DNA of 64,000 nt, taken from Salaquimonas sp. (GTDB taxonomy: Bacteria > Pseudomonadota > Alphaproteobacteria > Rhizobiales > Rhizobiaceae). Each line of letters opens with the position of its first letter. The stretch's first letter is position 1. Positions 17,539-31,045 of this stretch are shown one piece after another. The position numbers and the translations under genes were made by a program. Location: positions 51,115 through 115,114 of the forward strand of contig JANQQM010000038.1 of NCBI GenBank assembly GCA_028289365.1. The letters run 5' to 3'. The notes under the pieces were generated by a model. The model was not told the DNA's origin. It searched no databases and saw only the letters and a program-made list of their open reading frames with translations.

Positions 17539-19842
17539 ATGTATCAGCCCCCCTCGCCCTATATGCATTCCCAACCCTATCCTGGTTATGCTCCGCCAGA
17601 AGCGGAAGAAGAAAACGGTTTTGATCCGCTAAAACTGCTTTGGTTTGTGGTTCATTACCGGTGGCTAATCGCGGTTTGTCTTATCGTCGGCCTGATCAGC
17701 GGCGTGGTGCTGACCATGCTGCAGACACCGCTTTATCGTGCTGCTGCAAATCTTGAGATTGTGACAACAGGCGCCAAAGTTATCCAGGACCTTGAAGCCG
17801 TTGTGCAGACGAGCGACATGCGTACGTTCGAGAATGCACGCGTAAAGATGAAGAGCCGCGACCTGGCGCGCCGCGTGGTCTACGAGTTAAATCTGAGTGA
17901 AGACGAGACATTCCTTGCGCCTACCCCGACTTTCTCCCTGAGCAATCTGATAAACCGGGCGCTTGGAACCAGCCGGGAGGCAGACATAGAAGGGCTAACC
18001 CCGGAACAACGGGAAGCGCGGGCTGTCGGACTTGTCCAGGCAAATCTTGCCATCGCCCTTGTCCGAAACACATCGATCCTGAATATCAGCTTTAGCCACG
18101 CTTCGCCTGAGCATGCGGCCATGGTCGCAAATCAGGTAGCGCGGAGCTATATCGATCAAACGGTCGACAAAACCAGCGAAACCTCGGATCTAGCCAGGCA
18201 GTTCATCCAGGAGCAGGTGATTGAAACCAAGGCCAAATTACAGGAATCCGAAGCAGCACTTGTTGCTTATGCAAAAGAAGCCGGAATTACAGTTACCGGA
18301 AGCGACGCCTCCCTGATTTCGGAAAACATATCGAAGATCAATGCCGCCCTTGGCCAGGCAATTCAGGACCGTCTCGATGCGCAACGCGATGTCGAACAGG
18401 TGCGGGCAGGAAATGCCGGCTCGCTGCCTCAGGTATTCGAGAGCGAGTCCATCCAGACAACCAAACAGAAAATTGCCGAATTGAGAGCCACCTACCAGGA
18501 AAAGCTCAATACGCTGAAACCTGGTTTTCCCGAGATGATCAGGCTCAGTTCGCAAATAGGTGAGTTGCAAAAGCAGGTGGATGCAGAAGTCGCGTCTATC
18601 GCTCGTGCAGTGGAAATCAAGTTTGAACAATCCAAGGAAAAGGAAACAGCACTCAAGGAAGAATTGGCGCAGCTGGAAGCTGAACAAAGCACCTTTCAGG
18701 ACAAAAATATCCAATACACGATCCTGAAGCGCGAGGTCGATTCAAATCGCTCGCAATATGACACATTGATCAACAAGTTGAATGAAGTTGGTGTGGGGTC
18801 GGAGCTACGCTCAAGCAATGCCTCCATCGTAGATTTGGCAGTTATGCCGGGCAGGCCTTACACACCAAACATGAACAGAAACCTGATGCTTGCAATGGTT
18901 CTGTTTGCTGCTTTTGCGGCTGGCATTATCTACCTGCTTGAACTGATGAATAATACATTTGCTGTACCTGACCAGATCGAATCCGAGCTTAAACTCCCTG
19001 TCCTGGGCGTAATCCCGTTCGTAGATCAGGAAGAGCTCCATAATGCATTTTCCGACAATAAATCGTCTGTATCGGAAGCATATCGATCGCTTCGAACGTC
19101 GATCCAGTTCACTGGAACCGAAAATGCGATGCGGACGATATTGGTGACATCATCAGAACCGTCGGAAGGCAAGTCATCAACGGCCTACAAGCTGGCTTGC
19201 GACTTTGCAGCATTGGGAAAACGTGTTCTGATTGTCGATGCGGACTTGAGAAAACCGCGAATGCACCGGATTTTCAATATTTCCAACACGATGGGGCTTA
19301 GCAACCTGCTTTCAAATGTTGTTCGAAAAGGCGATGTCAGTTCACTATTCCAGGTCACATCTGTACCTAACGTAACGGTGCTATCTTCGGGGACAATTCC
19401 GCCTAACCCGGTCGACCTGCTCATGTCTTCGCGCATGGGTTTGACGCTTAGCTATTGTGCCAAACAATATGATCTGGTGATCGTCGATTCACCCCCTGTC
19501 ATGGGACTGTCGGACTCGCCAATTCTGAGTCGCCAAATGGATGCAACCTTGCTTGTTGTGGCAGCGAAACAGGTAACCCGCAAGGCTGCCAAAACAGCGC
19601 TTGCCAGATTAAATGCGGCGGGCGGGAATGTTGTAGGCGCTGCGTTTACCCGCTTCGCGGTCGATAAGCTCGACTACAATTACGCCTATCGTTATATGCA
19701 ATATAACTATTACAGCTATGACACCAATCCTGCACAGCTGGAGAACCATGCTACACAAAACGCAAATGCGCCCGCTCCAAACGTCAGGCGCACTGGTCCT
19801 GTTGCTGCTTTGTTTGATCGCTTCATGCCTGGTCCTTCTTGA
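17539..19842 (+). CDS. Polysaccharide co-polymerase PCP-2a with C-terminal tyrosine autokinase (Wzc/ExoP-like), copy 1
   Basis: ATG 17539 is preceded by GAGG. It has two TM segments flanking a long coiled-coil region. Kinase motifs are Walker A SEPSEGKSSTAYKLA, VLIVDADLRKP and DLVIVDSPPV. The Tyr cluster is DYNYAYRYMQYNYYSYD. Confidence 0.9.
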   Translation: MYQPPSPYMHSQPYPGYAPPEAEEENGFDPLKLLWFVVHYRWLIAVCLIVGLISGVVLTMLQTPLYRAAANLEIVTTGAKVIQDLEAVVQTSDMRTFENARVKMKSRDLARRVVYELNLSEDETFLAPTPTFSLSNLINRALGTSREADIEGLTPEQREARAVGLVQANLAIALVRNTSILNISFSHASPEHAAMVANQVARSYIDQTVDKTSETSDLARQFIQEQVIETKAKLQESEAALVAYAKEAGITVTGSDASLISENISKINAALGQAIQDRLDAQRDVEQVRAGNAGSLPQVFESESIQTTKQKIAELRATYQEKLNTLKPGFPEMIRLSSQIGELQKQVDAEVASIARAVEIKFEQSKEKETALKEELAQLEAEQSTFQDKNIQYTILKREVDSNRSQYDTLINKLNEVGVGSELRSSNASIVDLAVMPGRPYTPNMNRNLMLAMVLFAAFAAGIIYLLELMNNTFAVPDQIESELKLPVLGVIPFVDQEELHNAFSDNKSSVSEAYRSLRTSIQFTGTENAMRTILVTSSEPSEGKSSTAYKLACDFAALGKRVLIVDADLRKPRMHRIFNISNTMGLSNLLSNVVRKGDVSSLFQVTSVPNVTVLSSGTIPPNPVDLLMSSRMGLTLSYCAKQYDLVIVDSPPVMGLSDSPILSRQMDATLLVVAAKQVTRKAAKTALARLNAAGGNVVGAAFTRFAVDKLDYNYAYRYMQYNYYSYDTNPAQLENHATQNANAPAPNVRRTGPVAALFDRFMPGPS

Positions 19843-21040
19843 TGCTGTCAGCACGGCATTAATTCCAGACTCCAAAGAATCGGCATTGAAGATAAACCCG
19901 CTCAGTTCTCCGGCGAGAATTGCAACCATCGAAGCCGAACTTGATGATCTAAGGAATGGCAGAATTCTGCAGGACGACGAGTTACGGGAAATCATTCTCG
20001 ATGGAATTCGGCTTTCTCCGATTGATGCTCGGTATTACAGCGCGCTTGGAATTGTGGATGCAAGTTCCGGAGATCAGGATCAGGCAAAGCAACTCTTTGC
20101 CCACTCATTGGAATTACTACCGACCGAAATACAGGCCTTGACCCACCAGTTGGTTTATTCCGTACAGGAGGAGAGATTCACCGATGCTGTCGATCATCTG
20201 GAACTGATTGCAAGGCGATGGCCGAAATACTGGAGCGACATTGCCCCTGCCCTGCCGGTGTTGCTGGCAAATGAAGCAGCTTATCAAGATGTGACAACGC
20301 GCTTTTCGGCCGAACCCAATCTACGGCGCATGCTGGTGGATATTCTTTCCCGATCGCCGGAGACTCTGGGGCTGGCCATGAATGTATTGCTGGAGTGGGA
20401 TCATGCGGGAATATCCGGGATTTCGGGGGATTTGAACACAGTTACCCGGAGACTGGTGGGATCAGGTCGACCTTCTGAGGCCTTCCTCCTTTTCAACCTG
20501 ACCCGTGATCCGTCTGCACCAAATGGATATGTCTACAACGGAAATTTTGAAGTCGAACCAAGCGGAAATCCGTTTGACTGGTCGTGGCAATCGCAGGCGG
20601 GAGCGGATATCCGGATTGTCAACCGGAAGACGATCCGGGATGCTTCAACGACTGCCGAACCGGCATCCGAGACCGGTAAGGCGCTTTCGATCCGATTTCT
20701 CGACAATCCGGTGCGATTTGACAATGTCCGTCAACTGACACGACTGGTGGCAGGAAATTACACGCTTTCGGTAACCTATTCGGTCAGCAATCTGCGAACA
20801 CCGAAAGTCCTGAATCTCGGGATCCGGTGCAGAGGAAAGGGCGGGATTCTCGCAAGTGTTCAATTTGACACCGAGGTTGACGAACCAACAACGCTGGAGA
20901 CCAATTTTACAGTCCCGCCCATTGATTGCGACCTGCAGCAAATCACGATTTACAACAGGAACCTGACCGACAGCTGGAAGAACCGTTACAGTGGCACGCT
21001 CTTCCTGCATTCTGTGGCAATAACCCGTCCGGGAGTCTGA
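19748..21040 (+). CDS. Membrane-anchored protein of unknown function (N-terminal TM, TPR-like helical region, C-terminal beta-rich CBM-like region)
   Basis: Candidate starts are 19718, 19748 and 19766, all upstream of the TM helix ALVLLLLCLIASCLVLL and all inside the 3-prime end of the PCP gene. The C-terminal part has YVYNGNFEVEPSGNPFDWSW, a pattern seen in carbohydrate-binding-type beta sandwiches. Confidence 0.55.
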   Translation: MLHKTQMRPLQTSGALVLLLLCLIASCLVLLDAVSTALIPDSKESALKINPLSSPARIATIEAELDDLRNGRILQDDELREIILDGIRLSPIDARYYSALGIVDASSGDQDQAKQLFAHSLELLPTEIQALTHQLVYSVQEERFTDAVDHLELIARRWPKYWSDIAPALPVLLANEAAYQDVTTRFSAEPNLRRMLVDILSRSPETLGLAMNVLLEWDHAGISGISGDLNTVTRRLVGSGRPSEAFLLFNLTRDPSAPNGYVYNGNFEVEPSGNPFDWSWQSQAGADIRIVNRKTIRDASTTAEPASETGKALSIRFLDNPVRFDNVRQLTRLVAGNYTLSVTYSVSNLRTPKVLNLGIRCRGKGGILASVQFDTEVDEPTTLETNFTVPPIDCDLQQITIYNRNLTDSWKNRYSGTLFLHSVAITRPGV

Positions 21041-21088
21041 CCAATTCCAACGGAACACCGAAGCATTGCCTTTTACTATGCCGGCGCG

Positions 21089-22354
21089 GTGATCCTGGCC
21101 GCCATGATCCTGGGCGGCGGGACCAGCCAGTATATCTGGACAGACAACCTGTTGCAGATTTTGATGTTGCCATGCCTTTTCCTGGGCATAGTGAGCATCA
21201 GTTCCACCCGCCTTGAGTGGCCTTCGCAGCTTCTGGCAGTCGGCATATTGCTGTTGATATTCCTTCAGTTCTTGCCGGTGATACGGGAATCCCCCACTCC
21301 GGAATTATTACCCACAACATCCGGATGGGCTTTTTACTCGCTTTCTCCTTCAAACAGTCTGGAAGCCGGACTGTTTGGAATTTCGATCCTCGGTTTTGCG
21401 CTGTTTGTCTCCCGCTTGTCAGATCTTGCGCAGGAACGGTTGTTGCGATTCCTGTTCCTGGGGCTGTTCCTCAATGCGCTGATCGGCATCATTCAATTGT
21501 CCTTCGAACGCCGGGAGGTGATCACAGACCTCCTGCCCTTCAACATGAATGTCGGCGTATTTGCCAATGAGAACCATTATTCGACCCTGTTTTTCCTGAC
21601 CATCCCACTGCTGGCCTATCTTGCGCTGGTACGGTGGAAGAAGCCGTTGTCCTATCTGCTGTTTTCCAGCCTGCTTGTGTTTATCCTGTTTGCTGTAGGC
21701 TCCCGTGCCGGGATGTTCATTTCATCGGGTCTCGCAGTCTTCTGCTTTGTATGGTTCAGCCTCAATCTGTCTTCGCGAATTGCACGGTTGGGACTGATTG
21801 GCGCAGCGGCATTCGCCTTGATAATGATCGTTACTTTCTTCCCATTGGACGAAATTCTCGCCGGTGATTTGAGATCGGTAATCTTTGCAAACACCATGCG
21901 TGCCATCTCCGACAACTGGCTGGCCGGTACCGGGCTTGGAAGCTTTGTCTTGATCTACCCGTCCTATGAGGCCCGAGAGCAGGTCCTGCAGACCTATATC
22001 AATCATGCCCATAACGACTATATGGAGCTTGTTCTTGAAACCGGCATTTTCGGGATTGTGCTGATCGTCGGCTACTACGCTGTCATCTTGCGCAATTTCA
22101 TGCATTCGCGGCTGGCTGAAGCTGCGTTCATTTCAATCATGGCGGTCAGCCTGCATTCGCTTGTCGATTATCCTCTGCGGACGATGGCGATTGCGGTTCC
22201 CTTTGCCCTTCTCAGCGCCATTATCCTGTCCACCAAGCCGCACATTCTGGACCAGCGACGCGAGATGGAGCGGCAGGAAGCGCAAAGGCAATTCGAATCC
22301 GGCTCATCGGCAGAATATGGCACGCTCGAAGCGGAGCAATTTTTTGATCGCTGA
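21089..22354 (+). CDS. O-antigen ligase / Wzy-type polymerase family membrane protein
   Basis: About 10-12 TM helices. The periplasmic loop motif YINHAHNDYMELVLETGIFG is characteristic of the O-antigen-ligase (Wzy_C) domain. Confidence 0.8.
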   Translation: MILAAMILGGGTSQYIWTDNLLQILMLPCLFLGIVSISSTRLEWPSQLLAVGILLLIFLQFLPVIRESPTPELLPTTSGWAFYSLSPSNSLEAGLFGISILGFALFVSRLSDLAQERLLRFLFLGLFLNALIGIIQLSFERREVITDLLPFNMNVGVFANENHYSTLFFLTIPLLAYLALVRWKKPLSYLLFSSLLVFILFAVGSRAGMFISSGLAVFCFVWFSLNLSSRIARLGLIGAAAFALIMIVTFFPLDEILAGDLRSVIFANTMRAISDNWLAGTGLGSFVLIYPSYEAREQVLQTYINHAHNDYMELVLETGIFGIVLIVGYYAVILRNFMHSRLAEAAFISIMAVSLHSLVDYPLRTMAIAVPFALLSAIILSTKPHILDQRREMERQEAQRQFESGSSAEYGTLEAEQFFDR

Positions 22355-22365
22355 CGAAGATCCGT

Positions 22366-23475
22366 TTATTGCAGGCCCTTGATTGCAGCGAGGTTTCTGC
22401 TCAGGAATTGCCTGATCCGCATTGGCGAAAGAAGCCCGGACAAGAATTGGCGACGGGCGGCAGGACCGCTGGACAATCTTCCCCATATCCACGCAAAAAT
22501 GGAAGCCAGCATGGCTAATCGGTGCCGACCTGGTTCGGCTGTCAGATCAAGCGTCGTTTGTACCCAATTTTCTGCTTCAACGCTCGTTGAATCTATTGGA
22601 TTTTCTGCCTCAAGCACATTGCAAGACAATTCAATAAATGACTGAAAATATTGTGATAATTCTGCTTCATCAAATCTGGCGGACGCTTCCAGAATCCCGT
22701 CTTTCCCGAACTTCGCAAACATTCTTGCATAGTCCGCGACATCGCGAAGCAAGACCAGATTTGAGGAATACCGGCCGCTATCGATCTGCGCGTGGCTGAC
22801 AAGATGGCATATGCGATCGACGGGCGCCGGTGCCCTCAAAGCCGGATCAAGGCCGGATACGGCATTTTGAAATAGTTCCTGCGGCGGAAGAATTCCCAAG
22901 GCCGGACTGGCGGAGGCGGCAGTATGCAACTCGATCGCGGTAAGTTCACCGGCACGCCAAAGTGCCGGCGCATGCCGCATGGTGCGATCATAGGCAAGAT
23001 CATCATCGGTATAGCCATTGGATTTCAGGATATTTATTGCCTCATCAATCCGGTCTTCAGGCACCAGGACGTCCAGATCACTCAAGATGCGGTCTGCGGG
23101 ATCATCGTAGATTGGAGTAACAAATTCCGTGGCCCCCTTTAGTGCAATGGTCGGAATTCCATCACGCTGAAGCAGGTTTGAAGCTTCCGTCAATTGATCT
23201 GCGAGCCGTTTGTTGCGCTCCCGGTTCTGCTCACGCAGATGCCGGAAAAACCCCATGACTTCAGGATCAAGGCAATCTGCGATCTGACCGTGTTCAAATG
23301 CCCTGGGGATGAAATTGGCAATTGAGTGCGCCGTCGCCAGCCGAACCAGTTGCTGGGTATCGGCCTTGCGTAGCTCTTCTCGATCTTTGGTGTCGATCGA
23401 GTTTCCCAATGCGCTACGCATTAGAACAAGAAGGCATTTTACAGAATGGCGACGCATTTTCCGGCTTGATGTCAT
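22366..23475 (-). CDS. NTP_transf_5-type nucleotidyltransferase-fold protein, copy 1
   Basis: ATG at complement 23475 forms an ATGA overlap with the stop of the upstream kinase gene. The motif region is LLQRDGIPTIALKGATEFVTPIYDDPADRILSDLDVLVPEDRIDEAINILKSNGY. Confidence 0.75.
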   Translation of the reverse strand: MTSSRKMRRHSVKCLLVLMRSALGNSIDTKDREELRKADTQQLVRLATAHSIANFIPRAFEHGQIADCLDPEVMGFFRHLREQNRERNKRLADQLTEASNLLQRDGIPTIALKGATEFVTPIYDDPADRILSDLDVLVPEDRIDEAINILKSNGYTDDDLAYDRTMRHAPALWRAGELTAIELHTAASASPALGILPPQELFQNAVSGLDPALRAPAPVDRICHLVSHAQIDSGRYSSNLVLLRDVADYARMFAKFGKDGILEASARFDEAELSQYFQSFIELSCNVLEAENPIDSTSVEAENWVQTTLDLTAEPGRHRLAMLASIFAWIWGRLSSGPAARRQFLSGLLSPMRIRQFLSRNLAAIKGLQ

Positions 23476-24599
23476 GCCACCAATTCCTGCAGAACCGCTG
23501 CGGCATCTTCGCCGGTCCCGTACCTGAATGAAAATGCCGGAATGTTCTGACACAAGCCAACCATTGACCGGATGCTGTTATTGTGTCCGCAAGCCCGGCT
23601 GCCAGCTGCAGTCAGCCGGTGGAGGGCTTCAAGCTCATCGATTTGGGTCAAATTCGAGCCGTCAAATTCTGCTCGAAATTCCGGAAAGCAAAGATGGGTG
23701 GCTTTGTGCCAGCTCTGATCCGAATTAGCCTGCCAATAGCGAAAACCATATTCATCGGCATCCGGCAAAGGTGGATGTCCATTGTCTTTCAATTGCCGAT
23801 CCAGGATCTCGTGGCTACCCGATTTGATGCTGATATTTGCAGATAATCCAAACACGTAGCCGCCGCTCGACGATAGCGCAATCAGATCATCGCCCAGATA
23901 GGTTCCTCCCGTCATTACAAGTTGCGCCATTAATGTCGACTTGCCCGAACCGCTGGTACCGGAAAGAAGCAAGGTGCCCTGCCCCAGGCGGACCGCACTT
24001 GCGTGTAGTACAGCACCTACCTCACCGGGCCCCAAAGCGGTCTCCAGCAATGCCTGCAAAAACATGTGGCGACAGCCGGCAAAATCCTCACAGGACCAGT
24101 AGTGTTTGCCGTTCACCGCGACGAGAAAACTTCCATCGGTCGCAATCAGATCAACAACATCGGAAACTGCATCGTCCTCGTCATCCGTCAGAAGCGGTTC
24201 GAGGAGCCGGTGCAATACGGAACCGGCGGCCAAATCGTTACACCGAACAAAGACCGTGTTTTCGCCCAGTTTGATGCAATGGTTCCAGCAAAATTTGCCT
24301 TGCAGTCTTGCACCAGCCAGTAGCGTCACATGTTTGCCTGAGAACAGTCCGGCATCCGTCCAATGAGCCAGCATGGCATCAAAATCTGTTTCGACCCTGG
24401 CGCGATCCTGCTCCAACAACCGGGAAAGCCGTTCCACAGCTTGTGCCTTGTCGGCGGATTGCTGATAGGCAGCCAACATCAGCCGCGCGGTTTCGTTCAA
24501 AAGGACGATTGAACCATTTTCGGTCGAGTGGCCGATTGTATGACCACCAAAGGGCACCAGCTCTATGGCCTGTGCACTGGATTGCCGCTGATCAGACAT
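23472..24599 (-). CDS. PqqD/RRE-like domain fused to an HPr-kinase-C-like P-loop kinase (HprK-related kinase), copy 1
   Basis: The N-terminal SIVLLNETARLMLAAYQQ...DFDAMLAHWTDAGLF is PqqD-like. The C-terminal LHASAVRLGQGTLLLSGTSGSGKSTLMAQLVMTGGTYLGDDL is an HprK-type P-loop followed by an acidic motif. I chose ATG at complement 24599; a TTG at 24653 is also possible. Confidence 0.75.
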   Translation of the reverse strand: MSDQRQSSAQAIELVPFGGHTIGHSTENGSIVLLNETARLMLAAYQQSADKAQAVERLSRLLEQDRARVETDFDAMLAHWTDAGLFSGKHVTLLAGARLQGKFCWNHCIKLGENTVFVRCNDLAAGSVLHRLLEPLLTDDEDDAVSDVVDLIATDGSFLVAVNGKHYWSCEDFAGCRHMFLQALLETALGPGEVGAVLHASAVRLGQGTLLLSGTSGSGKSTLMAQLVMTGGTYLGDDLIALSSSGGYVFGLSANISIKSGSHEILDRQLKDNGHPPLPDADEYGFRYWQANSDQSWHKATHLCFPEFRAEFDGSNLTQIDELEALHRLTAAGSRACGHNNSIRSMVGLCQNIPAFSFRYGTGEDAAAVLQELVA

Positions 24600-24752
24600 T
24601 GCATCACCGAGTTTGGTAAGACTGGCCTCTAAAGACAAAGCCAATTCGGCCAAAACCGTTTATCAAACCGGTTGATCAGTCCCCTCAATTACGGGATTTG
24701 GCCCAGAATCGACCATAGGTTCGATATGGTTAATGAACTCTTTACAAACGTC

Positions 24753-27170
24753 CTAGGCTGCCCTGGTCTGGCGCTTTTGCGGCCGTTCGGAATTGCCCTT
24801 GGTTTCAGATGCAGGCGTCAGTTTCTGTGCGGTGTATTGTACTGCACCGGAAAAGCCGTTTCGAATGAGCTGCAGATCCCGTTCCAGCCAAGGCGCGTAA
24901 TGCTTGACAGTTCCGGCAGGCGGCGTTTCCACGGTCTCGTCGTGGCTATAGGTCAGATGACGATAGGCATAGGCATAGCTGAGGCGCTCCATGGAGAGGC
25001 ATGTCAGCGCTGCGCCGACTACATTGGCTCCCGCCATGTCCAATCTGGCCAAAGCAGCCTTTGCCGACTTGCGCGTCACCGATTTGGAGGAGACGACCAG
25101 CATGGTCGCATCGACCTGACCGCTCAGGATTTGGGCGTCTGCCAGATCGAGAATTGGCGGACTGTCGATGATAATCAGGTCGAAATATCTCGAACAACAC
25201 CTTAGTAGTGCACCCATTTTCGACGACGACAGCAGGTCAGCCGGATTTGGTGGTGGTGTCCCGGCTGACAGGAAGGTAACGCCCGGGAATTTCGTGCGCT
25301 GGAACAGGTCCAGCACCTGACTTTCATCAATCACATTGGACAGAAGGTTGCTAAGACCCGGACCCTCAGACGCCGAATAGATTTCATGAAGCCGCGGTTT
25401 GCGAAGATCGGCATCGATGACCAGCACGCGGCGACCAAGCGCAGCAAAATCCTGGGCGAGCTTGTAAACCGTTGTCGACTTGCCTTCGCCCGGCTGTGAT
25501 GATGTCACCAACAGGCTTTTTACGTCCTGTTCAACACCAGTAAAGCGCAGGGAAGATCGAAGGCTGCTGTAATTCTCAGAAATCTTGGATCGTGGGTTTT
25601 CCAGATCCTTGATCAAGGTTTCCTCATCGTTTTCGGGAATGGTTCCAAGAACCGGCAGTTTCAGTTCGGATTCCACACGTTCAGGTGTATCGAACTTGTT
25701 GCTGATCAACTCGATCAGGTAGATCAATGCTGCGCAAAGTGCTCCGAAAAATACCAATGCCATCAACATGTTACGTTCAAGGCGCGGTGTAAACGGCGCA
25801 CCCGGCGTGCGTGCATAGTCGATAATCGAGGCGTTGGTGTTCTTGAGTTCGGAACCAATGCCTACTTCGCTCAATTGAGCAATCAGCTGATCATATTGGG
25901 TGCGGTTTGAGTCCACCTCGCGCTTGAGGATCGTGTACTGGATATTCTTGTCCTGGAATTCCCGCTGTTTGGTTTCCAGCTCACCCAGTGCCCGGCGGAT
26001 ACTCTCTTCCTTCTGTGCTGCCAGTCCGGCCCGTGTTTCGACCGTTGCACCAATCGTGGCAGTCTCTTCCTTGATCTGACGCTGCAATTCCCTGATTTGT
26101 GCCTGGATCTTGCGCATTTCAGGATGATCGGGTTTCAGGGTGCTGCGCTTTTCTTCATAACCAGCCCTGAGCTCGGCAATTTTCTGCTTGGTGGTCTGAA
26201 TTGTCTCGCTCTCATAGACGGCCGGCAGGGATGTGATCTTGCCTGCGTTTGCCTGCTCCAGGTCGCGATCGGCAGCCAACCGTTCCTGAATTGCTTCGGC
26301 AAGCGCTTCATTTAGTTGCCCGATATTGTCTACAATCAACGAGGCATCATTTCCGGTGATGGTAATATTTTGCGCCTTTGCGTAGTTTACGAGCGCCTTT
26401 TCCGAATTTTGAAGCTTTGCCTTAGCTTCAACCACGCGCTGGTTAAGAAATTGACGTGCGAGATCGGAAGATTCACTCGTTTTATCAACGGTATAGTCGA
26501 TATAGCTACGCATCGCCTGATTGGCGACGAGTGCCGTGTATTTGGGGACTTCATGCGTAAACGAGACCCGGATAACGGAGCTGTCGCGGATGATGCTGAC
26601 GGACAATCCGCCACGGACGAGACCTACAGCCGCAGCTTCCCGTTCTTCTTTGGTCCAATCTGCCAGGCTGTTTTCCGATTCAGCACCAAATGCACGATCG
26701 ACCAGGTTCATCAGAGAAAATCCCGGCTTTGGCGCAATGAATGCGTCTTCATCGCCAAGGTTCAATTCGTGAACGATGCGCCGCGCAATATCTTCGCTTT
26801 CAAACTTGATGATCACATTTTCCATCGCGGAAAAGCGATCATATTGCGAAACGACTTCAAATTCCTCGAAGACCCGCGGCGTTGGGGTCTGGATTTCGAG
26901 ACGTGCTGAAGCACTATAGAGCGGCGTCTGCGACCAAGTATTAATTAGTCCGGCCGATATGCCGAGAATTACAAACCCCAGGATCAACCAACGATATTGG
27001 ATAGCATAGGAAATCAGCTTCAGCGGATCGAAACCAAATCCATCGTCTGCGATATCGTCTTGCATACGCGAGGTACGCCCGTTGTTTGACTGCAAGCCCT
27101 GCAGTTCCGACAGCGTCAGCATTACACATGGTTCTTCTTTCATGTGGCTGCCTGTATTGATCAAATTCAT
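24753..27170 (-). CDS. Polysaccharide co-polymerase PCP-2a with C-terminal tyrosine autokinase, copy 2
   Basis: 805 aa and clearly paralogous to copy 1 (FDPLKL, DKNIQYTILKREVDSNRTQYD, ESELKLPVLG). Kinase motifs are Walker A SQPGEGKSTTVYKLA, VLVIDADLRKP and DLIIIDSPPI. The Tyr patch SYAYAYRHLTYSHD is shorter and is followed by a long non-Tyr tail. Confidence 0.9.
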   Translation of the reverse strand: MNLINTGSHMKEEPCVMLTLSELQGLQSNNGRTSRMQDDIADDGFGFDPLKLISYAIQYRWLILGFVILGISAGLINTWSQTPLYSASARLEIQTPTPRVFEEFEVVSQYDRFSAMENVIIKFESEDIARRIVHELNLGDEDAFIAPKPGFSLMNLVDRAFGAESENSLADWTKEEREAAAVGLVRGGLSVSIIRDSSVIRVSFTHEVPKYTALVANQAMRSYIDYTVDKTSESSDLARQFLNQRVVEAKAKLQNSEKALVNYAKAQNITITGNDASLIVDNIGQLNEALAEAIQERLAADRDLEQANAGKITSLPAVYESETIQTTKQKIAELRAGYEEKRSTLKPDHPEMRKIQAQIRELQRQIKEETATIGATVETRAGLAAQKEESIRRALGELETKQREFQDKNIQYTILKREVDSNRTQYDQLIAQLSEVGIGSELKNTNASIIDYARTPGAPFTPRLERNMLMALVFFGALCAALIYLIELISNKFDTPERVESELKLPVLGTIPENDEETLIKDLENPRSKISENYSSLRSSLRFTGVEQDVKSLLVTSSQPGEGKSTTVYKLAQDFAALGRRVLVIDADLRKPRLHEIYSASEGPGLSNLLSNVIDESQVLDLFQRTKFPGVTFLSAGTPPPNPADLLSSSKMGALLRCCSRYFDLIIIDSPPILDLADAQILSGQVDATMLVVSSKSVTRKSAKAALARLDMAGANVVGAALTCLSMERLSYAYAYRHLTYSHDETVETPPAGTVKHYAPWLERDLQLIRNGFSGAVQYTAQKLTPASETKGNSERPQKRQTRAA

Positions 27171-27438
27171 ACCGGACCCATCCCATTGAACTCAATCGGG
27201 GTTTGTGTGTTGCCTTCAGGTCCCCGATTTGACCTCTTAAACGACGGTTCAATTCCTTGACGAATTACCGAAGTTTTTAACAATCTCGTCAAACAATAGG
27301 ATCTCGCTCATAAATTTTCGCTAATATACGTGGTAAACAAATTATGGATATTTGGCTGCCGCTGCCGCGGCCAGGTATCTAACGCTATTTTACTTGTAAT
27401 TTTTCTTGAAAATCCAAATTCAAATAAGCACAAAAATG

Positions 27439-27457
27439 TTATGTGCAGTGCACATAA
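27439..27457. promoter_or_regulatory. 19-bp palindrome in a divergent A+T-rich promoter region (candidate operator)
   Basis: TTATGTGCA-G-TGCACATAA has perfect 9-bp arms. It lies between PCP copy 2 (minus strand) and the plus-strand kinase/PqqD/NTase operon. Confidence 0.4.
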
Positions 27458-27556
27458 ATGATCTTGTTGATACAACCATTAATACGTTCAGTTTTTATCT
27501 CTGCGCGACTATGGTTATCTTCACGTACCGGGCTTACAAAAAAAGAATGCGAAAAA

Positions 27557-27871
27557 ATGTCCCGCGCCTACTTTGAAGATTTATTAAGTGACCCGAGATG
27601 GACGAGCGAAGAAAGAGCGTTCATTGAATTTGTTTGCGGGCCAACACCTTTCATTGTCGAATTTCTAGATAGCGAGCTGAAAAAGGAACGCATTACTGAA
27701 ATCAAGGACTGGTGCACCGAGAAATATGGTGACCCGTCCGATCCGTTCCGCGGTAAAACCGGTGATTGGCGGATTTGCTCAATTTCGGACCAAAAATCGA
27801 TCTGTTTTCGGCTTGAGGAACAATTGTCCGATTTCCTGACCTATCGAAAGAAACTTAAACAATATTCATGA
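27557..27871 (+). CDS. Hypothetical small protein
   Basis: About 104 aa from ATG 27557 (ORF track TTG at 27458). It is A+T-rich, has no recognised motif and no clear RBS. Confidence 0.35.
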   Translation: MSRAYFEDLLSDPRWTSEERAFIEFVCGPTPFIVEFLDSELKKERITEIKDWCTEKYGDPSDPFRGKTGDWRICSISDQKSICFRLEEQLSDFLTYRKKLKQYS

Positions 27872-28009
27872 GTTAGTGGCATCGCATTTGTCATTGATCT
27901 GCTGATACATCTGCCTTCTTACACGCAAGTTTGAATCATCCCGCATCTTGCCTGATGGTGTCTTAAACATGCGAATCATCTAAATTGCCGCATCGAGACA
28001 ACCCAAGAT

Positions 28010-28975
28010 ATGGTCTCGGTTGCACAAAGGCTTCAGCAAATGCCTAGATTTTCGTTATCCGCGAAATGGCATACGCCATGCTATGAGAAACTCTCCGCGC
28101 TCGAATGGACCAGCGGATTTTCGATTGCCTCCCATGGCGTCAGGATTGGGGTGCGGACGTCCGATCCGTCTATTGTCCCGATTTTGAAGGACAGCCTTCC
28201 AGCCAGTTGTGAACTGTGCGAGGCGGAAGCCGTTGATACGGTATTGTCAGTCGTATTGGGGGGGCGGGATAAAAAAACACGGACCCGCCGGTACCACCTG
28301 GTCTATCATAATCATTCGGTATTCTCGCGCTCGCATCGGCTTGAGGAAATCATTGACGGTTTCAAATCCTGTCTTGCAATGAACCTGGCGACATTGGCGA
28401 GGCGCCGTGTTTTCATTCATGCCGGTGCTGTTGGCTGGCAGGGCAAGGCAATTGTCTTTCCCGGTAAATCCTATAGCGGCAAGAGCACCTTGGTGCTGGA
28501 ACTGATCAAGGCCGGGGCGAGCTATCTTTCCGATGAATTTGCAGTGCTGGATTTCAAGGGCCGGGTTCACCCCTATCCCAAACCAATCTCCCTGCGTAAG
28601 ACAGCCAACGGCAAACAAATGGACGTGTCGATTTCGTCTATTGGCGGAACGACGGCAGATGCTCCGTTAACATTGGGGCTCGTTGTGGACACGCAGTTTC
28701 AGCCCAATGCGCTCTGGCTCCCCCGGATGCTTTCACCCGGCGAAGGATTGCTTTCGCTCCTGGCGAATTGCGCAGCCGCAAGATATGCGCCGGAGCGCTG
28801 CCTGCGGGCTATGGAACGGGCGTCACAAAACGCACAGTTCATTGCCTCACCGCGCGAGGAAGCAGCCAGCGTGGTGCCGGAGATATTGGATCTATTGCGT
28901 ACCGAAACAGAAACTGACGAATTCGCCGGTGTTGTTCAAGGTTCCGCGGAAAGCGCTCATTCCCTGGGATTGTGA
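28010..28975 (+). CDS. HPr-kinase-C-like P-loop kinase (HprK-related kinase), copy 2
   Basis: 321 aa. IHAGAVGWQGKAIVFPGKSYSGKSTLVLELIKAGASYLSDEFAVLD aligns with the copy 1 kinase core. Confidence 0.75.
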   Translation: MVSVAQRLQQMPRFSLSAKWHTPCYEKLSALEWTSGFSIASHGVRIGVRTSDPSIVPILKDSLPASCELCEAEAVDTVLSVVLGGRDKKTRTRRYHLVYHNHSVFSRSHRLEEIIDGFKSCLAMNLATLARRRVFIHAGAVGWQGKAIVFPGKSYSGKSTLVLELIKAGASYLSDEFAVLDFKGRVHPYPKPISLRKTANGKQMDVSISSIGGTTADAPLTLGLVVDTQFQPNALWLPRMLSPGEGLLSLLANCAAARYAPERCLRAMERASQNAQFIASPREEAASVVPEILDLLRTETETDEFAGVVQGSAESAHSLGL

Positions 28976-29463
28976 TGCCAATGCCATCCGAAATCAGACC
29001 GAAAGCGCGCACTGCTCGCATCGTGGTTCGCGAACTTGGGAGCGAGGTACTGATCTATGATCTGGACAGTCATGATGCGACATGTCTGAACGCAGCGGCA
29101 AGCAAGGTCTGGAAGCTCTGTGACGGTAAGAGAACCATTGGCGAGATATCTGCAGAACTGGAAAATGAGGCGTGCGGTGGCAGTGCCGAAGAAAACGTTT
29201 TGACGGCGTTAGAAAATTTCATTCAGGCGAATCTTCTGGAAGAGGTTCCCGAAATTGAGACGTCAGATGGAGAAAATCGCAGAGATGTTCTTCGTGGGAT
29301 CGTCGCGTCCGCAACCGCCATTCCCCTTGCCACAACCATCTCGGTGCCGGCCATGGCTCAAATCGCTTCGTGTCTTGGCAGGCGCGAACGGTGCAGGCGA
29401 TTTTTCGGTCCGGAATGTTGTCCGGGACTTGAGTGCCGCCGCCGCAGATGCAGACCGGAATGA
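28972..29463 (+). CDS. PqqD/RRE-like domain protein with internal Tat-like signal and C-terminal Arg-rich six-Cys peptide
   Basis: 163 aa. Its start overlaps the kinase stop (GTGATG). The PqqD-like part is ARIVVRELGSEVLIYDLDSHDATCLNAAASKVWKLCDGKRTIGEISAEL. This is followed by NRRDVLRGIVASATAIPLATTISVPAMA, then QIASCLGRRERCRRFFGPECCPGLECRRRRCRPE. Confidence 0.7.
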   Translation: MMPMPSEIRPKARTARIVVRELGSEVLIYDLDSHDATCLNAAASKVWKLCDGKRTIGEISAELENEACGGSAEENVLTALENFIQANLLEEVPEIETSDGENRRDVLRGIVASATAIPLATTISVPAMAQIASCLGRRERCRRFFGPECCPGLECRRRRCRPE

Positions 29464-29499
29464 CAACAAGGACATGCGAGACCTGCCTTGATCGCCCCA

Positions 29500-30630
29500 A
29501 TGCCAAATGACCCGAAATATACCAATGCTCAGATCATCGCGGAGCTGCTGTCCGGCGCATGGCGAAATGAAGTGGATCCGGCGTGGATTTCTCCCGAAGC
29601 ACTGCATGACATCCACCCGATTGTCCTTTCGACCGGCGCAGGCCCCTTATGCTGGCGGCGCATCGAAACCGTGCCCGAATTGCGGGAGACGGATGCCGGT
29701 CAACTTTTGCGTAAAAGCTATCTGATGACTGCCCTTCGCGGCCAAATGCTTGAGGAAACGCTTGAGCGCATTTGCGAGGTGCTTGACGAGTTCGAGGTCA
29801 TCCCTTTGATCTTCAAGGGTTGGTCAGTTGCACAATATTATGGTGATCCTGATTTACGCCCGTTTGGCGACATCGATCTTTGTGCTCCGCCAGATCGCTA
29901 TTTAGAGACCGCAGGTTACCTTTCACAATACGCGACAACACCACCAGATGGCGGCCGCAAGCGGCAGTTTGTTCCCGGCAAGAAAACCACAGTGTTTGGG
30001 TTTGACTGCGAATTACCGGGAAATGTAACCCAGATAGATCTGCATCGCGATCTTCAGCGCTTTCGATTTGATCAGCTTGAAGCGGTCTATGCGCGTTCTC
30101 GACTGATTCCAGTCAAGTCCCGCCAAATCCGGGTGCTGTCACCGGAAGATCATTTGCGGCTGCTTTGCCTGCATTTTCTCGACCATGGTGGCTGGCGACC
30201 AATCTGGCTCTGCGATATTGCCGCATTGCTCGAGGCACTGCCCGATGATTTCGATTGGGATCTCTGTCTCGGCGACGATCCCCTCACCCGTCATTGGGTG
30301 GAGATCGCGGTCGCGCTGGCCTGTCAACTTTTATGCGCTAATCCCAAAACCAGGCCTCAATTGCCGGCTTTGCCCTCCTGGCTAATCACCGAAGTTCTGG
30401 AACAGTGGCGCCGTCCGTTTGAGGCCCATATGCCCCGAACGAGATTTTTGCAGGTGCTTTTGCATTATCCGCTTGAGATAGTTTCTGAAGCTGCGGCTCG
30501 CTGGCCAAACAAGATCAGGGCAACTTGTGCAACAAAATCCAGGTTCGACGATAGACCGCGCTGGCCATATCAGCTATCTGAATTTTCTCGGCGTGCTTTC
30601 TCCTTTTTTGAGCTATCGGGTGCGCGCTGA
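29500..30630 (+). CDS. NTP_transf_5-type nucleotidyltransferase-fold protein, copy 2
   Basis: ATG at 29500 (ORF track TTG at 29488). The motif region is LDEFEVIPLIFKGWSVAQYYGDPDLRPFGDIDLCAPPDRYLETAGYL. Confidence 0.75.
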   Translation: MPNDPKYTNAQIIAELLSGAWRNEVDPAWISPEALHDIHPIVLSTGAGPLCWRRIETVPELRETDAGQLLRKSYLMTALRGQMLEETLERICEVLDEFEVIPLIFKGWSVAQYYGDPDLRPFGDIDLCAPPDRYLETAGYLSQYATTPPDGGRKRQFVPGKKTTVFGFDCELPGNVTQIDLHRDLQRFRFDQLEAVYARSRLIPVKSRQIRVLSPEDHLRLLCLHFLDHGGWRPIWLCDIAALLEALPDDFDWDLCLGDDPLTRHWVEIAVALACQLLCANPKTRPQLPALPSWLITEVLEQWRRPFEAHMPRTRFLQVLLHYPLEIVSEAAARWPNKIRATCATKSRFDDRPRWPYQLSEFSRRAFSFFELSGAR

Positions 30631-31028: not shown

Positions 31029-31045
31029 ATTTTCATTTTCGCCTT

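What the first reader, a model, noticed from the sequence alone, without database searches (positions are those of the whole stretch)
22366..24599. Triad copy 1: PqqD/RRE-like domain fused to an HprK-like kinase, translationally coupled to an NTP_transf_5 nucleotidyltransferase, downstream of a BY-kinase
The kinase ORF starts with a PqqD-like peptide-binding domain (IVLLNETARLMLAAY...DFDAMLAHWTDAGL) and ends with an HPr-kinase-type P-loop (SGTSGSGKSTL...GDD). Its TGA overlaps the ATG of the NTase (ATGA). HPr-kinase homologues plus RRE domains are known from paeninodin-type lasso-peptide clusters, where they phosphorylate a precursor peptide. NTase-fold partners have been reported to decorate the phosphate further. 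I also recall NCBI family names 'HprK-related kinase A' and 'HPr-rel-A system PqqD family peptide chaperone' for an uncharacterised system. Here there is no lasso cyclase or protease, and no obvious precursor gene next to this copy. The genes are co-oriented behind PCP copy 2.
Basis: partly seen in the sequence, partly recalled or inferred. Interest (0 to 1): 0.65.

Follow-up and report, generated by a model that had tools for sequence, protein, structure and literature searches.

The report
Peptide-guided kinase and nucleotidyltransferase pair
Two overlapping genes in a coral-associated bacterium's sugar-coat gene cluster encode a kinase with a built-in peptide-binding domain and a partner nucleotidyltransferase, and they most likely decorate a small exported peptide whose own gene has been lost next to this copy, so it is an uncharacterised system rather than an ordinary sugar enzyme.

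Summary
On the minus strand, a 375-aa PqqD/RRE + HprK/PEPCK-fold P-loop kinase (24599..23472) overlaps by ATGA a 369-aa NTP_transf_5 nucleotidyltransferase (23475..22366), downstream of a second BY-kinase co-polymerase. Both enzymes keep their catalytic motifs and are under purifying selection.

It is related to NCBI's uncharacterised "HPr-rel-A system" but fails that family's cut-offs. It belongs to a large family of fused PqqD-kinases that no full-length NCBIfam or Pfam model covers.

New here: related cassettes carry a neighbouring gene with a twin-arginine-like leader. This holds for one of the two canonical HPr-rel-A loci, for the kin2-type and for the fused type.
- The 66%-identical relative has a 73-aa leader-plus-core ORF between the co-polymerase and the kinase. 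The window lacks it.
- In the window's copy 2 the "PqqD" protein itself ends in this leader plus a six-cysteine, knottin-like peptide.

Best reading: an RRE-guided kinase/NTase tailoring pair for exported ribosomal peptides. The chemistry is inferred by analogy with pseudomycoidin. The pair is repeatedly embedded in polysaccharide loci. There is no lasso machinery, and neither substrate nor chemistry has been shown.

The parts
23472..24599 (-). kin1: 375-aa fusion of an N-terminal PqqD/RRE peptide-binding domain with an HprK/PEPCK-fold P-loop kinase
   Evidence: ORF and translation. Pfam PqqD 27.2 bits and TIGR04352 E 5e-14. AF2 pLDDT 87.8. Foldseek matches PEPCK and HprK/P. dN/dS 0.18 against L088.
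24345..24566 (-). RRE (PqqD-like) domain of kin1, residues about 12-85
   Evidence: Pfam PqqD at residues 26-85. The AF2 secondary structure is E12-17, E20-25, E31-34, H36-48, H51-62, H66-83. 35 of 36 sampled family members hit Pfam PqqD.
23934..23960 (-). Walker-A P-loop GTSGSGKST of kin1 (residues 214-222)
   Evidence: Sequence. G219, K220 and T222 are invariant in 36 family members.
23886..23894 (-). GDD motif of kin1 (residues 236-238), the HprK/P-type catalytic acidic pair
   Evidence: Sequence. It aligns to the GDD of M. pneumoniae HprK/P 1knx. D238 is invariant and D237 at least 90% conserved.
23472..23475 (-). ATGA stop/start overlap between kin1 and nt1
   Evidence: conserved in L086 and L088.
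22366..23475 (-). nt1: 369-aa NTP_transf_5 (Pol-beta-fold) nucleotidyltransferase
   Evidence: PF14907 at 109.7 bits, E 2.3e-31. Invariant K113 G114, R129, D133-x-D135 and H184 across 11 partners, including the third gene of a canonical HPr-rel-A locus. dN/dS 0.07 against L086.
23071..23079 (-). DxD (D133-L-D135) catalytic carboxylates of nt1
24753..27170 (-). PCP-2: 805-aa polysaccharide co-polymerase / BY-kinase directly upstream of kin1 on the same strand
   Evidence: TIGR01007 at 161 bits, above its cut-off, and TIGR01005. 55% identical to PCP-1 at 17464-19842. The order PCP-2, kin1, nt1 is kept in L088 and L086.
24600..24752 (-). 153-nt PCP-2/kin1 spacer. Its first ~100 nt are conserved in relatives. 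In L086 the equivalent spacer is 457 nt and holds a 73-aa precursor-like ORF that is absent here.
   Evidence: Alignment; L086 sequence; motif scan. No significant RNA fold (z = -1.09) and no Rfam match.
21089..22354 (+). Wzy_C-domain membrane protein (O-antigen ligase/polymerase family), convergent with nt1
   Evidence: Pfam Wzy_C 44.4 bits. The same convergent neighbour is 73% identical in L086. Wzy_C genes recur next to related triads.
28010..28975 (+). kin2: unfused HprK-like kinase of triad copy 2
   Evidence: TIGR04352 58.6 bits. hhalign of the kin1 family against the kin2 family: probability 98.8%, 261 columns. 581 relatives in genome contigs.
28972..29463 (+). Copy-2 'PqqD' protein. 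It is a composite: RRE domain, then a twin-arginine-like leader (NRRDVLRG..., RR at 29278-29283), a hydrophobic stretch and AQIAS, then a 30-aa six-Cys cationic core CLGRRERCRRFFGPECCPGLECRRRRCRPE (29371-29460). It is the only precursor-like gene in the window.
   Evidence: Pfam PqqD 31.7 bits. The same architecture is seen in 46 complete homologues. The core is near-identical in the sister MAG.
29488..30630 (+). nt2: NTP_transf_5 nucleotidyltransferase of copy 2
   Evidence: PF14907 107.4 bits. It aligns with nt1 and shares the catalytic residues.

Best explanation
Copy 1 is a two-enzyme tailoring module for a ribosomally made, exported peptide.

Proposed mechanism:
1. The N-terminal PqqD/RRE domain of kin1 binds the conserved leader of a small precursor. 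That leader has a twin-arginine motif [S/T]RRx-hydrophobic-hydrophobic-[K/R], a mildly hydrophobic stretch and an AxA site.
2. The RRE presents the precursor to the attached HprK/PEPCK-fold kinase, which uses ATP to phosphorylate a Ser/Thr hydroxyl.
3. The translationally coupled NTP_transf_5 enzyme then uses a nucleotide-activated donor to extend that phosphate or to nucleotidylate the peptide. The analogy is PsmK/PsmN of pseudomycoidin.
4. The leader then directs export, and signal-peptidase-type cleavage releases the short basic or cysteine-rich core.

In this lineage the module is wired into a polysaccharide locus in the order PCP-2, kin1, nt1, with a convergent Wzy_C gene. The cognate small precursor gene present in the 66%-identical relative is missing here. 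Copy 1 therefore probably acts on the copy-2 precursor (28972-29463) or on a peptide encoded outside the window.

Shown:
- Domain identities and intact catalytic motifs.
- Purifying selection on both enzymes.
- Gene order and its conservation.
- Precursor-like ORFs next to related cassettes.
- Recurrent polysaccharide context.

Inferred:
- That the RRE binds that leader.
- Which residue is phosphorylated.
- What the NTase adds.
- The export route.
- Which peptide copy 1 uses in this genome.
For: Domains and fold.

The fused architecture is a large conserved family. A profile search found 2,099 50%-identity clusters at E<1e-30, and about 141 of the top 150 are full length. Of 36 sampled members, 35 hit PqqD and all 36 hit TIGR04352. 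H199, G219, K220, T222 and D238 are invariant.

The RRE appears in three positions. This is a Rosetta-stone-type argument that RRE, kinase and peptide work together.
- Free-standing: canonical L089 and L093.
- Fused to the kinase: kin1.
- Fused to the precursor: kin2-type.
The kinase bodies of the kin1 and kin2 families are homologous (hhalign 98.8%).

Precursor-like ORFs sit beside three independent fused-type kinases: L086:576-794, L091:1336-1575 and L002:1897-2118.
- They are mutually similar (E 5.7e-4 to 0.029 among 40,048 pieces).
- An HMM built from them hits next almost only the C-terminal halves of kin2-type PqqD proteins.
- A 161-aa protein with the same SRRMLML leader sits upstream of a RefSeq-annotated HPr-rel-A triad.

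Leader statistics over 52 sequences: 32 match the strict Tat-like motif, 51 the loose one, and 49 have AxA.

Cores are hypervariable, as in RiPPs. 35 of 46 have six Cys, most often spaced C-x6-C-x5-CC-x3-C-x4-C.

Selection: kin1 dN/dS is 0.18 against L088, which also lacks the small ORF, and nt1 is 0.07 against L086. The NTase catalytic residues are conserved.

Published precedent for kinase then NTase on a peptide Ser: PMC8498205.
Against: - No precursor gene lies next to copy 1 in the window or in L088.
- The RRE of kin1 and the RRE of the copy-2 protein show no detectable sequence similarity. Shared leader recognition is therefore unproven.
- No core position is conserved as Ser/Thr except the residue before the first Cys, which is S/T in 31 of 46. 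There is no conserved C-terminal Ser as in paeninodin-type precursors.
- NCBIfam returned no family at E<=1, so no twin-arginine signal model matched the small ORFs.
- One canonical locus (L089) and the P0007/P0130 type (L001, L087) have no such ORF nearby.
- PEPCK, a small-molecule kinase, is the best structural match.
- That the lasso-cluster NTases belong to PF14907 rests on my memory and was not verified.
- There is no expression or biochemical data. The source is a coral metagenome with no RNA runs.
Confidence: 0.5

Rival explanations
1. Glycan or small-molecule modification. The kinase phosphorylates a sugar, a nucleotide-sugar or an undecaprenyl-linked repeat unit of the exopolysaccharide. 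The NTase-fold partner adds a phospho-alcohol or nucleotide, in the manner of LicD. The PqqD-like domain is only a regulatory or docking module.
For: - The genes sit inside a polysaccharide locus and are kept there in relatives.
- 30 of 82 related loci carry PCP, Wzy_C, OPX or PGT genes.
- The best structural matches are PEP carboxykinases, which are small-molecule kinases.
- PF14907 also occurs beside phosphonate genes with a thymidylate kinase (PMC8942020).
- About a quarter of kin2-type loci have kinase and NTase with no PqqD gene.
Against: - A PqqD/RRE domain is found in 35 of 36 fused family members and as a neighbouring gene in most others.
- Leader-plus-core ORFs are adjacent or fused.
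- Many triads lie outside any polysaccharide context, for example L083, L089 and L093.
Confidence: 0.15
2. Regulatory protein modification of the assembly machinery. As the first reader suggested, kin1/nt1 phosphorylate or nucleotidylate a Ser/Thr on PCP-2 (for example its ~65-residue tail after the Tyr cluster) or on another EPS protein, to tune chain length or export.
For: - The PCP-then-kinase adjacency on one strand is seen in the window, L088 and L086.
- It recurs in the kin2-type loci L031, L070 and L074. PCP lies directly beside the triad in L041 and L082.
- HprK/P itself is a regulatory Ser kinase (established knowledge).
- PCP-2 is more conserved than kin1 (94% against 85% identity; dN/dS 0.05 against 0.18).
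Against: - The PCP-2 tail has no RR-leader-like segment (translation; scans).
- Most related triads (about 70 of 82 loci) have no PCP within 10 kb.
- This reading does not explain the fused or adjacent hypervariable core peptides.
Confidence: 0.13
3. Export gate or chaperone. The PqqD domain acts like a Tat proofreading chaperone (REMP) on a twin-arginine signal peptide. The kinase and NTase modify the signal region itself to hold or release export, rather than decorate the mature peptide.
For: - The conserved part of all precursor-like sequences is the signal-like segment, and the Ser of SRR is common.
- In copy 2 the RRE is covalently upstream of that segment.
- The cores are too variable to offer a common modification site.
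Against: - No precedent is known to me for kinase or NTase gating of Tat signals.
- No twin-arginine signal family was returned for the small ORFs at E<=1.
- Six-Cys peptides would normally fold after export.
- In lasso systems the homologous kinase modifies the core (PMC8498205).
Confidence: 0.1
4. Orphaned remnant. After losing its precursor gene, copy 1 is non-functional and is being carried along with PCP-2.
For: The small ORF present in L086 is absent from the window and from L088. kin1 evolves faster than PCP-2.
Against: - Both ORFs are intact, with all catalytic motifs.
- dN/dS is 0.18 between the two genomes that both lack the ORF.
- The ATGA coupling is kept.
Confidence: 0.04

Closest known systems
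NCBIfam 'HPr-rel-A system': TIGR04353 PqqD family peptide chaperone, TIGR04352 HprK-related kinase A and a nucleotidyltransferase family protein (uncharacterised)
   Same: The same three functions occur in one cassette. TIGR04352 is the best NCBIfam hit for kin1 and kin2. The third gene of a true system aligns with nt1 and shares its catalytic residues. A leader-bearing small protein sits upstream in Sphingomonas.
   Different: Scores fall far below the family cut-offs: 52 and 59 bits against 200, with no TIGR04353 hit. Here the PqqD domain is fused to the kinase (copy 1) or to the precursor (copy 2). The canonical loci seen lie next to glmU/glmS, not polysaccharide assembly genes.
Lasso-peptide tailoring: paeninodin-type HPr-kinase homologues (PadeK/ThcoK) and the pseudomycoidin PsmK kinase plus PsmN nucleotidyltransferase
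   Same: An HprK-like kinase works with an RRE-containing pathway on a ribosomal precursor. An NTase then adds to the phosphate (PMC8498205). The kin1 RRE has weak similarity to lasso PqqD models (NF033530; 30 of 36 family members).
   Different: No lasso cyclase or B2 protease was seen among the genes scanned. The only Asn synthase has a GATase domain. The precursors have a twin-arginine-like leader and no conserved C-terminal Ser. The setting is a polysaccharide locus.
PqqD-PqqA-PqqE paradigm (an RRE presenting a peptide to an enzyme) and the SynChlorMet cassette ScmC/ScmD
   Same: A PqqD-type RRE is paired with a modifying enzyme. ScmC (TIGR04249) is a weak relative of these kinases and ScmD of the PqqD part.
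   Different: There are no radical-SAM enzymes. The enzyme partners are a P-loop kinase and a Pol-beta-fold NTase.
HPr kinase/phosphorylase (HprK/P) and ATP-dependent PEP carboxykinase
   Same: Shared P-loop kinase fold, Walker A motif and GDD motif.
   Different: TIGR00679 scores 20 bits against 240. There is no HPr context. An extra N-terminal RRE is present, and the family is distinct.

Membership tests
NCBIfam HPr-rel-A system | Kinase reaches the TIGR04352 (HprK_rel_A) cut-off of 200 bits | tested here: not met
   kin1 scores 52.1 bits over profile positions 98-280 only. kin2 scores 58.6 bits. The positive control L089 scores 222.3 bits.
NCBIfam HPr-rel-A system | PqqD component reaches the TIGR04353 (PqqD_rel_X) cut-off of 35 bits | tested here: not met
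   No TIGR04353 hit at E<=0.01 for kin1 or for the copy-2 PqqD protein. Only 1 of 36 fused-family members hits it weakly. The control L089 scores 47.5 bits.
NCBIfam HPr-rel-A system | Cassette of PqqD-type chaperone, HprK-like kinase and nucleotidyltransferase | tested here: met
   All three functions are present and adjacent, with PqqD fused to the kinase. The RefSeq example shows the same trio.
Pfam PF05402 PqqD (RRE) | Score at or above the gathering threshold, with a three-strand, three-helix fold | tested here: met
   27.2 bits against 23.4. The AF2 model shows E12-17, E20-25, E31-34, H36-48, H51-62 and H66-83.
Pfam PF07475 Hpr_kinase_C / HprK-PEPCK kinase fold | Pfam gathering score of 33.3 bits | tested here: not met
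   18.2 bits, E 0.0019. 12 of 36 family members hit at E<=1e-3.
Pfam PF07475 Hpr_kinase_C / HprK-PEPCK kinase fold | P-loop kinase fold with Walker A and the GDD acidic pair | tested here: met
   Foldseek matches PEPCK at E 1.7e-7 and HprK/P 1kkl at E 7e-5. The motifs align to 1knx and are conserved in the family.
Pfam PF14907 NTP_transf_5 | Score at or above the gathering threshold, and the NTase G[SG]...DxD signature | tested here: met
   109.7 bits against 31.2. K113 G114 and D133-x-D135 are invariant in the alignment.
Phosphorylated lasso peptide (paeninodin/pseudomycoidin-type) cluster | Lasso cyclase (Asn-synthase homologue without a GATase domain) and a B2 transglutaminase-type protease in the cluster | tested here: not met
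   None was found among the window genes scanned. The Asn synthase at 39655-41541 has GATase_7 and GATase_6 domains.
Phosphorylated lasso peptide (paeninodin/pseudomycoidin-type) cluster | Short precursor with a C-terminal Ser as the phospho-acceptor | tested here: not met
   The candidate precursors end in varied residues, and the window core ends ...CRPE.
Twin-arginine (Tat) signal peptide, for the candidate precursors | [S/T]RRxFLK-like motif, a moderately hydrophobic h-region and an AxA site near the N-terminus | tested here: inconclusive
   The motif is strict in 32 of 52 and loose in 51 of 52, with AxA in 49 of 52. No twin-arginine signal family was returned for the small ORFs at E<=1. 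In kin2-type proteins the segment is internal, after a ~100-aa domain. The export route cannot be tested here.

The most novel reading that the evidence does not exclude
These triads define an undescribed class of exported, RRE-guided, phospho-modified and NTase-modified ribosomal peptides.
- The class would include bacterial knottin-like six-cysteine peptides whose precursor carries its own RRE and an internal twin-arginine-type leader.
- It would be functionally coupled to Wzy/PCP-dependent polysaccharide assembly. For example, the peptide could be a phosphoglycosylated acceptor or anchor for glycan ligation by the neighbouring Wzy_C protein. Alternatively it could be a matrix-binding or regulatory partner of the co-polymerase.
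- Copy 1 would be the trans-acting (RRE-on-enzyme) version and copy 2 the cis-acting (RRE-on-substrate) version, both working on the one precursor in this locus.
Probability: 0.3. Interest if true: 0.85.

Novelty: new variant of a known kind. Interest (0 to 1): 0.64.

Why it matters
The PqqD, HprK-like kinase and NTP_transf_5 trio is widespread. Here it showed 581+ relatives of one type in species-representative genomes and about 2,000 clusters of the fused type in metagenomes. In the papers searched I found no study that names a substrate or product for this trio.

This analysis gives it a testable substrate class: small proteins and peptides with a conserved twin-arginine-like leader and a hypervariable basic or knottin-like core. 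It also shows that evolution has attached the peptide-binding domain in turn to nothing, to the enzyme and to the substrate.

If the chemistry is confirmed, three things follow:
- A new peptide natural-product class found in Acidobacteriota, Gemmatimonadota and Alphaproteobacteria.
- A first function for PF14907 outside lasso peptides.
- A possible peptide component in exopolysaccharide or biofilm loci of a coral-associated bacterium.

For annotation, these genes should not be named PqqD (as JGI does), HPr kinase or HPr-rel-A members.

Tried and rejected
- AlphaFold2 of the copy-2 PqqD/precursor protein as a single sequence gave pLDDT 49 and was unusable. Homologues from the loci could not be supplied as an alignment.
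- The metagenome-contig scan with the fused-kinase alignment failed once. It then returned only one locus because the P-loop pattern is too generic. That locus did serve as a positive control for the true HPr-rel-A families.
- Word-index homologue searches badly under-reported the fused family, at 8 and 13 hits. The full HMMER scan corrected this. Contexts of those proteins could not be fetched.
- tblastn of kin1 against plasmids found nothing.
- Cluster member names were only 'hypothetical protein' or 'PqqD'.
- Profile search against PDB sequences found HprK/P only at E 0.086 for kin1, nothing for the kin2 profile and nothing meaningful for nt1.
- A 17-codon ORF in the PCP-2/kin1 spacer (MVDSGPNPVIEGTDQPV) is not kept in L086 and was rejected as a precursor.
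- A piece at 39449-39616 (-) containing SRRDF has no ATG, GTG or TTG start and was rejected as chance.
- The spacer shows no significant RNA structure (z = -1.09), and Rfam has no hit in 22000-31100.
- The promoter and terminator scan was no better than shuffles, so co-transcription with PCP-2 is undecided.
- No RNA sequencing runs exist. The source is a coral metagenome.
- Literature searches for 'HprK-related kinase', PF14907, and RRE with HPr kinase found nothing on this system.
- No similarity was found between the kin1 RRE and the copy-2 RRE.


Full report
OBSERVATION

The two genes lie on the minus strand.
- The kinase ORF runs from ATG 24599 to TGA 23474-23472 (375 aa).
- The nucleotidyltransferase (NTase) ORF starts at ATG 23475-23473 and ends at 22366 (369 aa). 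The two genes therefore share ATGA. This overlap is kept in two relatives.
- Upstream on the same strand, after 153 nt, is an 805-aa polysaccharide co-polymerase/BY-kinase, PCP-2 (27170..24753). It is 55% identical to PCP-1 at 17464-19842.
- A Wzy_C membrane protein (21089-22354) converges on the NTase.

DOMAINS

Profile scores:
- Pfam PqqD passes its threshold (27.2 against 23.4 bits, residues 26-85).
- NTP_transf_5 is strong (109.7 bits, E 2.3e-31).
- Hpr_kinase_C is below threshold (18.2 against 33.3 bits).
- The best NCBIfam hit is TIGR04352 'HprK-related kinase A' (E 5e-14). It scores only 52 bits against a 200-bit cut-off and covers only the C-terminal two thirds of the model.

Structure:
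- An AlphaFold2 model built on eight homologues is confident (pLDDT 87.8, pTM 0.86).
- It shows a three-strand, three-helix RRE-type domain at residues 12-83, followed by an alpha/beta kinase body.
- Foldseek against the PDB returns ATP-dependent PEP carboxykinases (E 1.7e-7) and HprK/P (1kkl, E 7e-5). This is the expected superfamily.

Conserved residues:
- The Walker A motif (GTSGSGKST), H199 and D238 are conserved among 36 family members.
- In the NTase, K113 G114, R129, D133-x-D135 and H184 are invariant across eleven partners of all cassette types.

Both enzymes look active. The domain part of the finding is confirmed.

THE REST OF THE LOCUS

The window is a large polysaccharide locus. 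In order it encodes:
- a PHP-type phosphatase and an RfaH/UpxY-like antiterminator;
- a polyprenyl glycosylphosphotransferase, an OPX exporter and PCP-1;
- a TPR protein and a Wzy_C protein;
- copy 1 and PCP-2 on the minus strand;
- copy 2 on the plus strand: kin2 (28010-28975), a 163-aa PqqD protein (28972-29463) and nt2 (29488-30630);
- GDP-mannose/fucose genes, glycosyltransferases, an AsnB-type amidotransferase with a GATase domain, and a Wzm/Wzt ABC transporter with methyltransferases.

No lasso cyclase or B2 protease was seen.

FAMILY RELATIONSHIPS

Kinase families:
- kin2 belongs to a large family. It gave 494+ word-index hits and 581 relatives in species-representative genomes. These are mostly Acidobacteriota (Pyrinomonadaceae and Blastocatellia). 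Others are Mesorhizobium, Rhizobiales, Roseiarcus, Methylomirabilis, Gemmatimonadales, Chloroflexota and others.
- kin1 first looked rare, with 8 hits. A full HMMER scan of 1.84 billion representatives with the kin1-family profile found 2,099 clusters at E<1e-30. About 141 of the best 150 aligned end to end at 370-410 aa.
- Of 36 sampled members, 35 carry Pfam PqqD. All 36 hit TIGR04352, and none comes near the cut-off.
- The kin1 and kin2 kinase bodies are homologous over 261 columns (hhalign probability 98.8%).

Membership of the HPr-rel-A system:
- A genuine member was recovered as a control in L089: PqqD_rel_X 47.5 bits against 35, and HprK_rel_A 222 bits against 200. It is followed by an NTase that aligns with nt1.
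- The window cassettes are therefore relatives of that named but uncharacterised system, not members by its own criteria.

PRECURSORS (THE MAIN NEW RESULT)

The kin2-type 'PqqD' protein is composite in the window and in 46 complete homologues. It has four parts:
- an RRE domain;
- a linker;
- a conserved segment such as SRRELIR-LGLAAAVALPVVTSIVAPTPAQAAS;
- a hypervariable 23-63-aa C-terminal peptide.

Of these C-terminal peptides, 35 of 46 have six cysteines. The most common spacing is C-x6-C-x5-CC-x3-C-x4-C, which is knottin-like. The window version ends ...NRRDVLRGIVASATAIPLATTISVPAMAQIAS followed by CLGRRERCRRFFGPECCPGLECRRRRCRPE. The core is nearly identical in the sister MAG.

The conserved segment reads like a twin-arginine signal. 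Over 52 sequences, 32 match [ST]RRx-hydrophobic-hydrophobic-[KR], 51 match a looser form and 49 have an AxA site. However, NCBIfam returned no family for the small ORFs at E<=1.

For the fused type, which is the type of copy 1:
- Three independent loci have a small ORF next to the kinase with the same design but no RRE. They are L086:576-794, L091:1336-1575 and L002:1897-2118.
- These ORFs resemble one another (E 5.7e-4 to 0.029 in 40,048 six-frame pieces).
- An HMM built from them hits next almost only the C-terminal halves of kin2-type PqqD proteins.
- A RefSeq-annotated canonical triad is preceded by a 161-aa 'hypothetical protein' with ...TSRRMLMLGAVGASTVIAVRPALAQ....

The RRE is thus free-standing, fused to the kinase or fused to the substrate in different cassettes. 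This argues that RRE, kinase and leader-bearing peptide act together, much as PqqD, PqqA and PqqE do.

WHAT THIS MEANS FOR COPY 1

- L086 is the 66%-identical relative and has the same order: PCP-2, kinase, NTase, then a convergent Wzy_C gene.
- Its PCP-2/kinase spacer is 457 nt and contains the 73-aa ORF MTANLKSRDRAGHSRRDFLRSVGKFSAYVAPATLVLLDTDSAYAKKNCSQHPRPKPGRNCIPAGAAARGRGRP.
- In the window and in the 85%-identical L088 the spacer is 153 nt and the ORF is absent.
- Scans of all six frames of the window found no other leader-type ORF except the copy-2 protein.
- kin1 is still under purifying selection between the two genomes that lack the ORF (dN/dS 0.18; PCP-2 0.05; nt1 against L086 0.07). 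It probably still has a substrate, either the copy-2 precursor or a peptide encoded outside the 64-kb window.
- The two RRE domains share no detectable sequence similarity, so this assignment is open.

POLYSACCHARIDE LINKAGE

Across 82 related loci, 30 carry a PCP, Wzy_C, OPX or initiating transferase gene within the DNA held.
- PCP lies immediately beside the triad in L031, L070, L074, L041 and L082, as well as in the window lineage.
- An alphaproteobacterial locus (L038) repeats the window's set of PHP phosphatase, triad, Wzy_C and antiterminator.
- L084, L046 and L055 sit in glycosyltransferase or ABC-transporter glycan clusters.
- Many Acidobacteriota share the order GT4-family transferase, Wzy_C, TPR, a 219-aa secreted protein, TPR, then the kinase. 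Much of that is one family, so those counts are not independent.

Other triads lie elsewhere: L083, L089 and L093. The link is recurrent and crosses phyla, but it is not obligatory.

About 1,050-aa Peptidase_C25 proteins sit beside the triad in 17 loci. They could be leader peptidases. None is in the window.

MECHANISM

Best reading, confidence about 0.5:
1. RRE-guided Ser/Thr phosphorylation of a leader-bearing ribosomal peptide.
2. NTase-catalysed extension of the phosphate or nucleotidylation of the peptide.
3. Export and cleavage.

The kinase-then-NTase order and chemistry are borrowed from paeninodin and pseudomycoidin (PMC8498205). They are not shown here. That the lasso NTases are PF14907 members is from my memory only.

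Rivals, each set out with its tests in the Rival explanations section:
- Glycan or small-molecule modification. PEPCK is the best structural match, and PF14907 occurs beside phosphonate genes.
- Regulatory modification of PCP-2.
- A Tat-chaperone-like export gate.
- An orphaned remnant.

NOVELTY AND LIMITS

No paper in the searchable library describes this system or these precursors. I rate it a new variant of a known kind: RRE-dependent peptide tailoring by an HprK-like kinase and an NTase. There is a realistic chance that it is a new peptide class tied to exopolysaccharide assembly.

Limits:
- There is no expression data. The source is a coral metagenome.
- Contexts for most fused-family members could not be fetched.
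- The copy-2 protein could not be modelled.
- All substrate and chemistry statements are inferences.

Noticed in passing
window 28972-29463 (+): The copy-2 'PqqD' gene encodes an RRE domain fused to a twin-arginine-like leader and a 30-aa, six-Cys, strongly cationic peptide (CLGRRERCRRFFGPECCPGLECRRRRCRPE). The same RRE-leader-core design occurs in 46 homologues across several phyla. Most cores have knottin-like cysteine spacing, and one (L041) has a tandem 12-Cys core.
   Followed up: yes
L086:576-794, L091:1336-1575, L002:1897-2118, L093:6984-7469: Small ORFs with the same RR-hydrophobic-AxA leader but no RRE sit next to fused PqqD-kinases. One also sits next to a RefSeq-annotated canonical HPr-rel-A triad, where it is called 'hypothetical protein'. 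No NCBIfam model matches them.
   Followed up: yes
window 24650-24752 (-), just after the PCP-2 stop: About 100 nt of non-coding sequence is conserved in L088 and L086, including an inverted repeat ACCATA-N7-TATGGT. There is no significant RNA fold and no Rfam hit. It could be a protein-binding or regulatory site.
   Followed up: partly
window 27458-27871 (+): A 137-codon ORF (more likely about 104 aa starting at MSRAYFEDLL) lies between PCP-2 and kin2, after an AT-rich divergent spacer. It has no Pfam or NCBIfam hit but is partly conserved in the sister MAG contig L088.
   Followed up: no
L010, L017, L026, L029, L048, L053, L059, L060, L064, L066-L068, L072, L075, L078 and others: Peptidase_C25 (gingipain-family) proteins of about 1,050 aa lie directly beside kinase-PqqD-NTase triads in 17 loci. 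They are candidate leader or sorting peptidases. None is in the window.
   Followed up: partly
L005-L065 (Pyrinomonadaceae/Blastocatellia loci): A conserved upstream block precedes the kinase: Glycos_transf_4, Wzy_C, a TPR protein, a 219-aa secreted Ala/Gly-rich protein with a hydrophobic C-terminus, and a second TPR protein. About a quarter of these loci have no PqqD gene at all.
   Followed up: partly
window 14938-22354 and 42568-44803: The locus combines two glycan assembly routes. One is Wzy/PCP/OPX-type, with two PCP paralogues 55% identical. The other is a Wzm/Wzt ABC-transporter route with a Wzt_C domain and adjacent methyltransferases.
   Followed up: no
window 39655-41541 (+): An asparagine synthase homologue near the cluster has full GATase_6/7 domains. 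It is an AsnB-type amidotransferase typical of glycan loci, not a lasso cyclase.
   Followed up: partly
window 8346-9626 (-): An MBL-fold hydrolase scores above the NCBIfam cut-off for GntH, the guanitoxin-biosynthesis metallo-hydrolase (403.8 against 333 bits). No other guanitoxin genes were noticed nearby.
   Followed up: no
window 38001-40000 and 44001-50000: Low-GC patches (0.435-0.47 against about 0.52-0.55 elsewhere) coincide with a GT11 fucosyltransferase and several glycosyltransferase and methyltransferase genes. This suggests mosaic acquisition within the glycan locus.
   Followed up: no
L094 (Gemmatirosa kalamazoonensis KBS708 plasmid 1, about 7146-11408): A cultured strain carries a kin2-type kinase, a PqqD-leader-Cys-rich precursor (...ILPAVKSIVAPTPAAADSTGVVTGACTDLLRGCDINTCTGTCKR...) and an NTase on the opposite strand. 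The PLSDB record has no annotation. It is a possible experimental model.
   Followed up: partly
L090:6017-12296: Another variant has a separate PqqD, a 364-aa HprK-like kinase, an ABC exporter (ABC_membrane + ABC_tran) and a second HprK-like protein on the opposite strand. It is flanked by a phosphoglycosyl transferase, a BY-kinase-like protein and Wzy_C. A 56-aa ORF upstream is a possible precursor.
   Followed up: no
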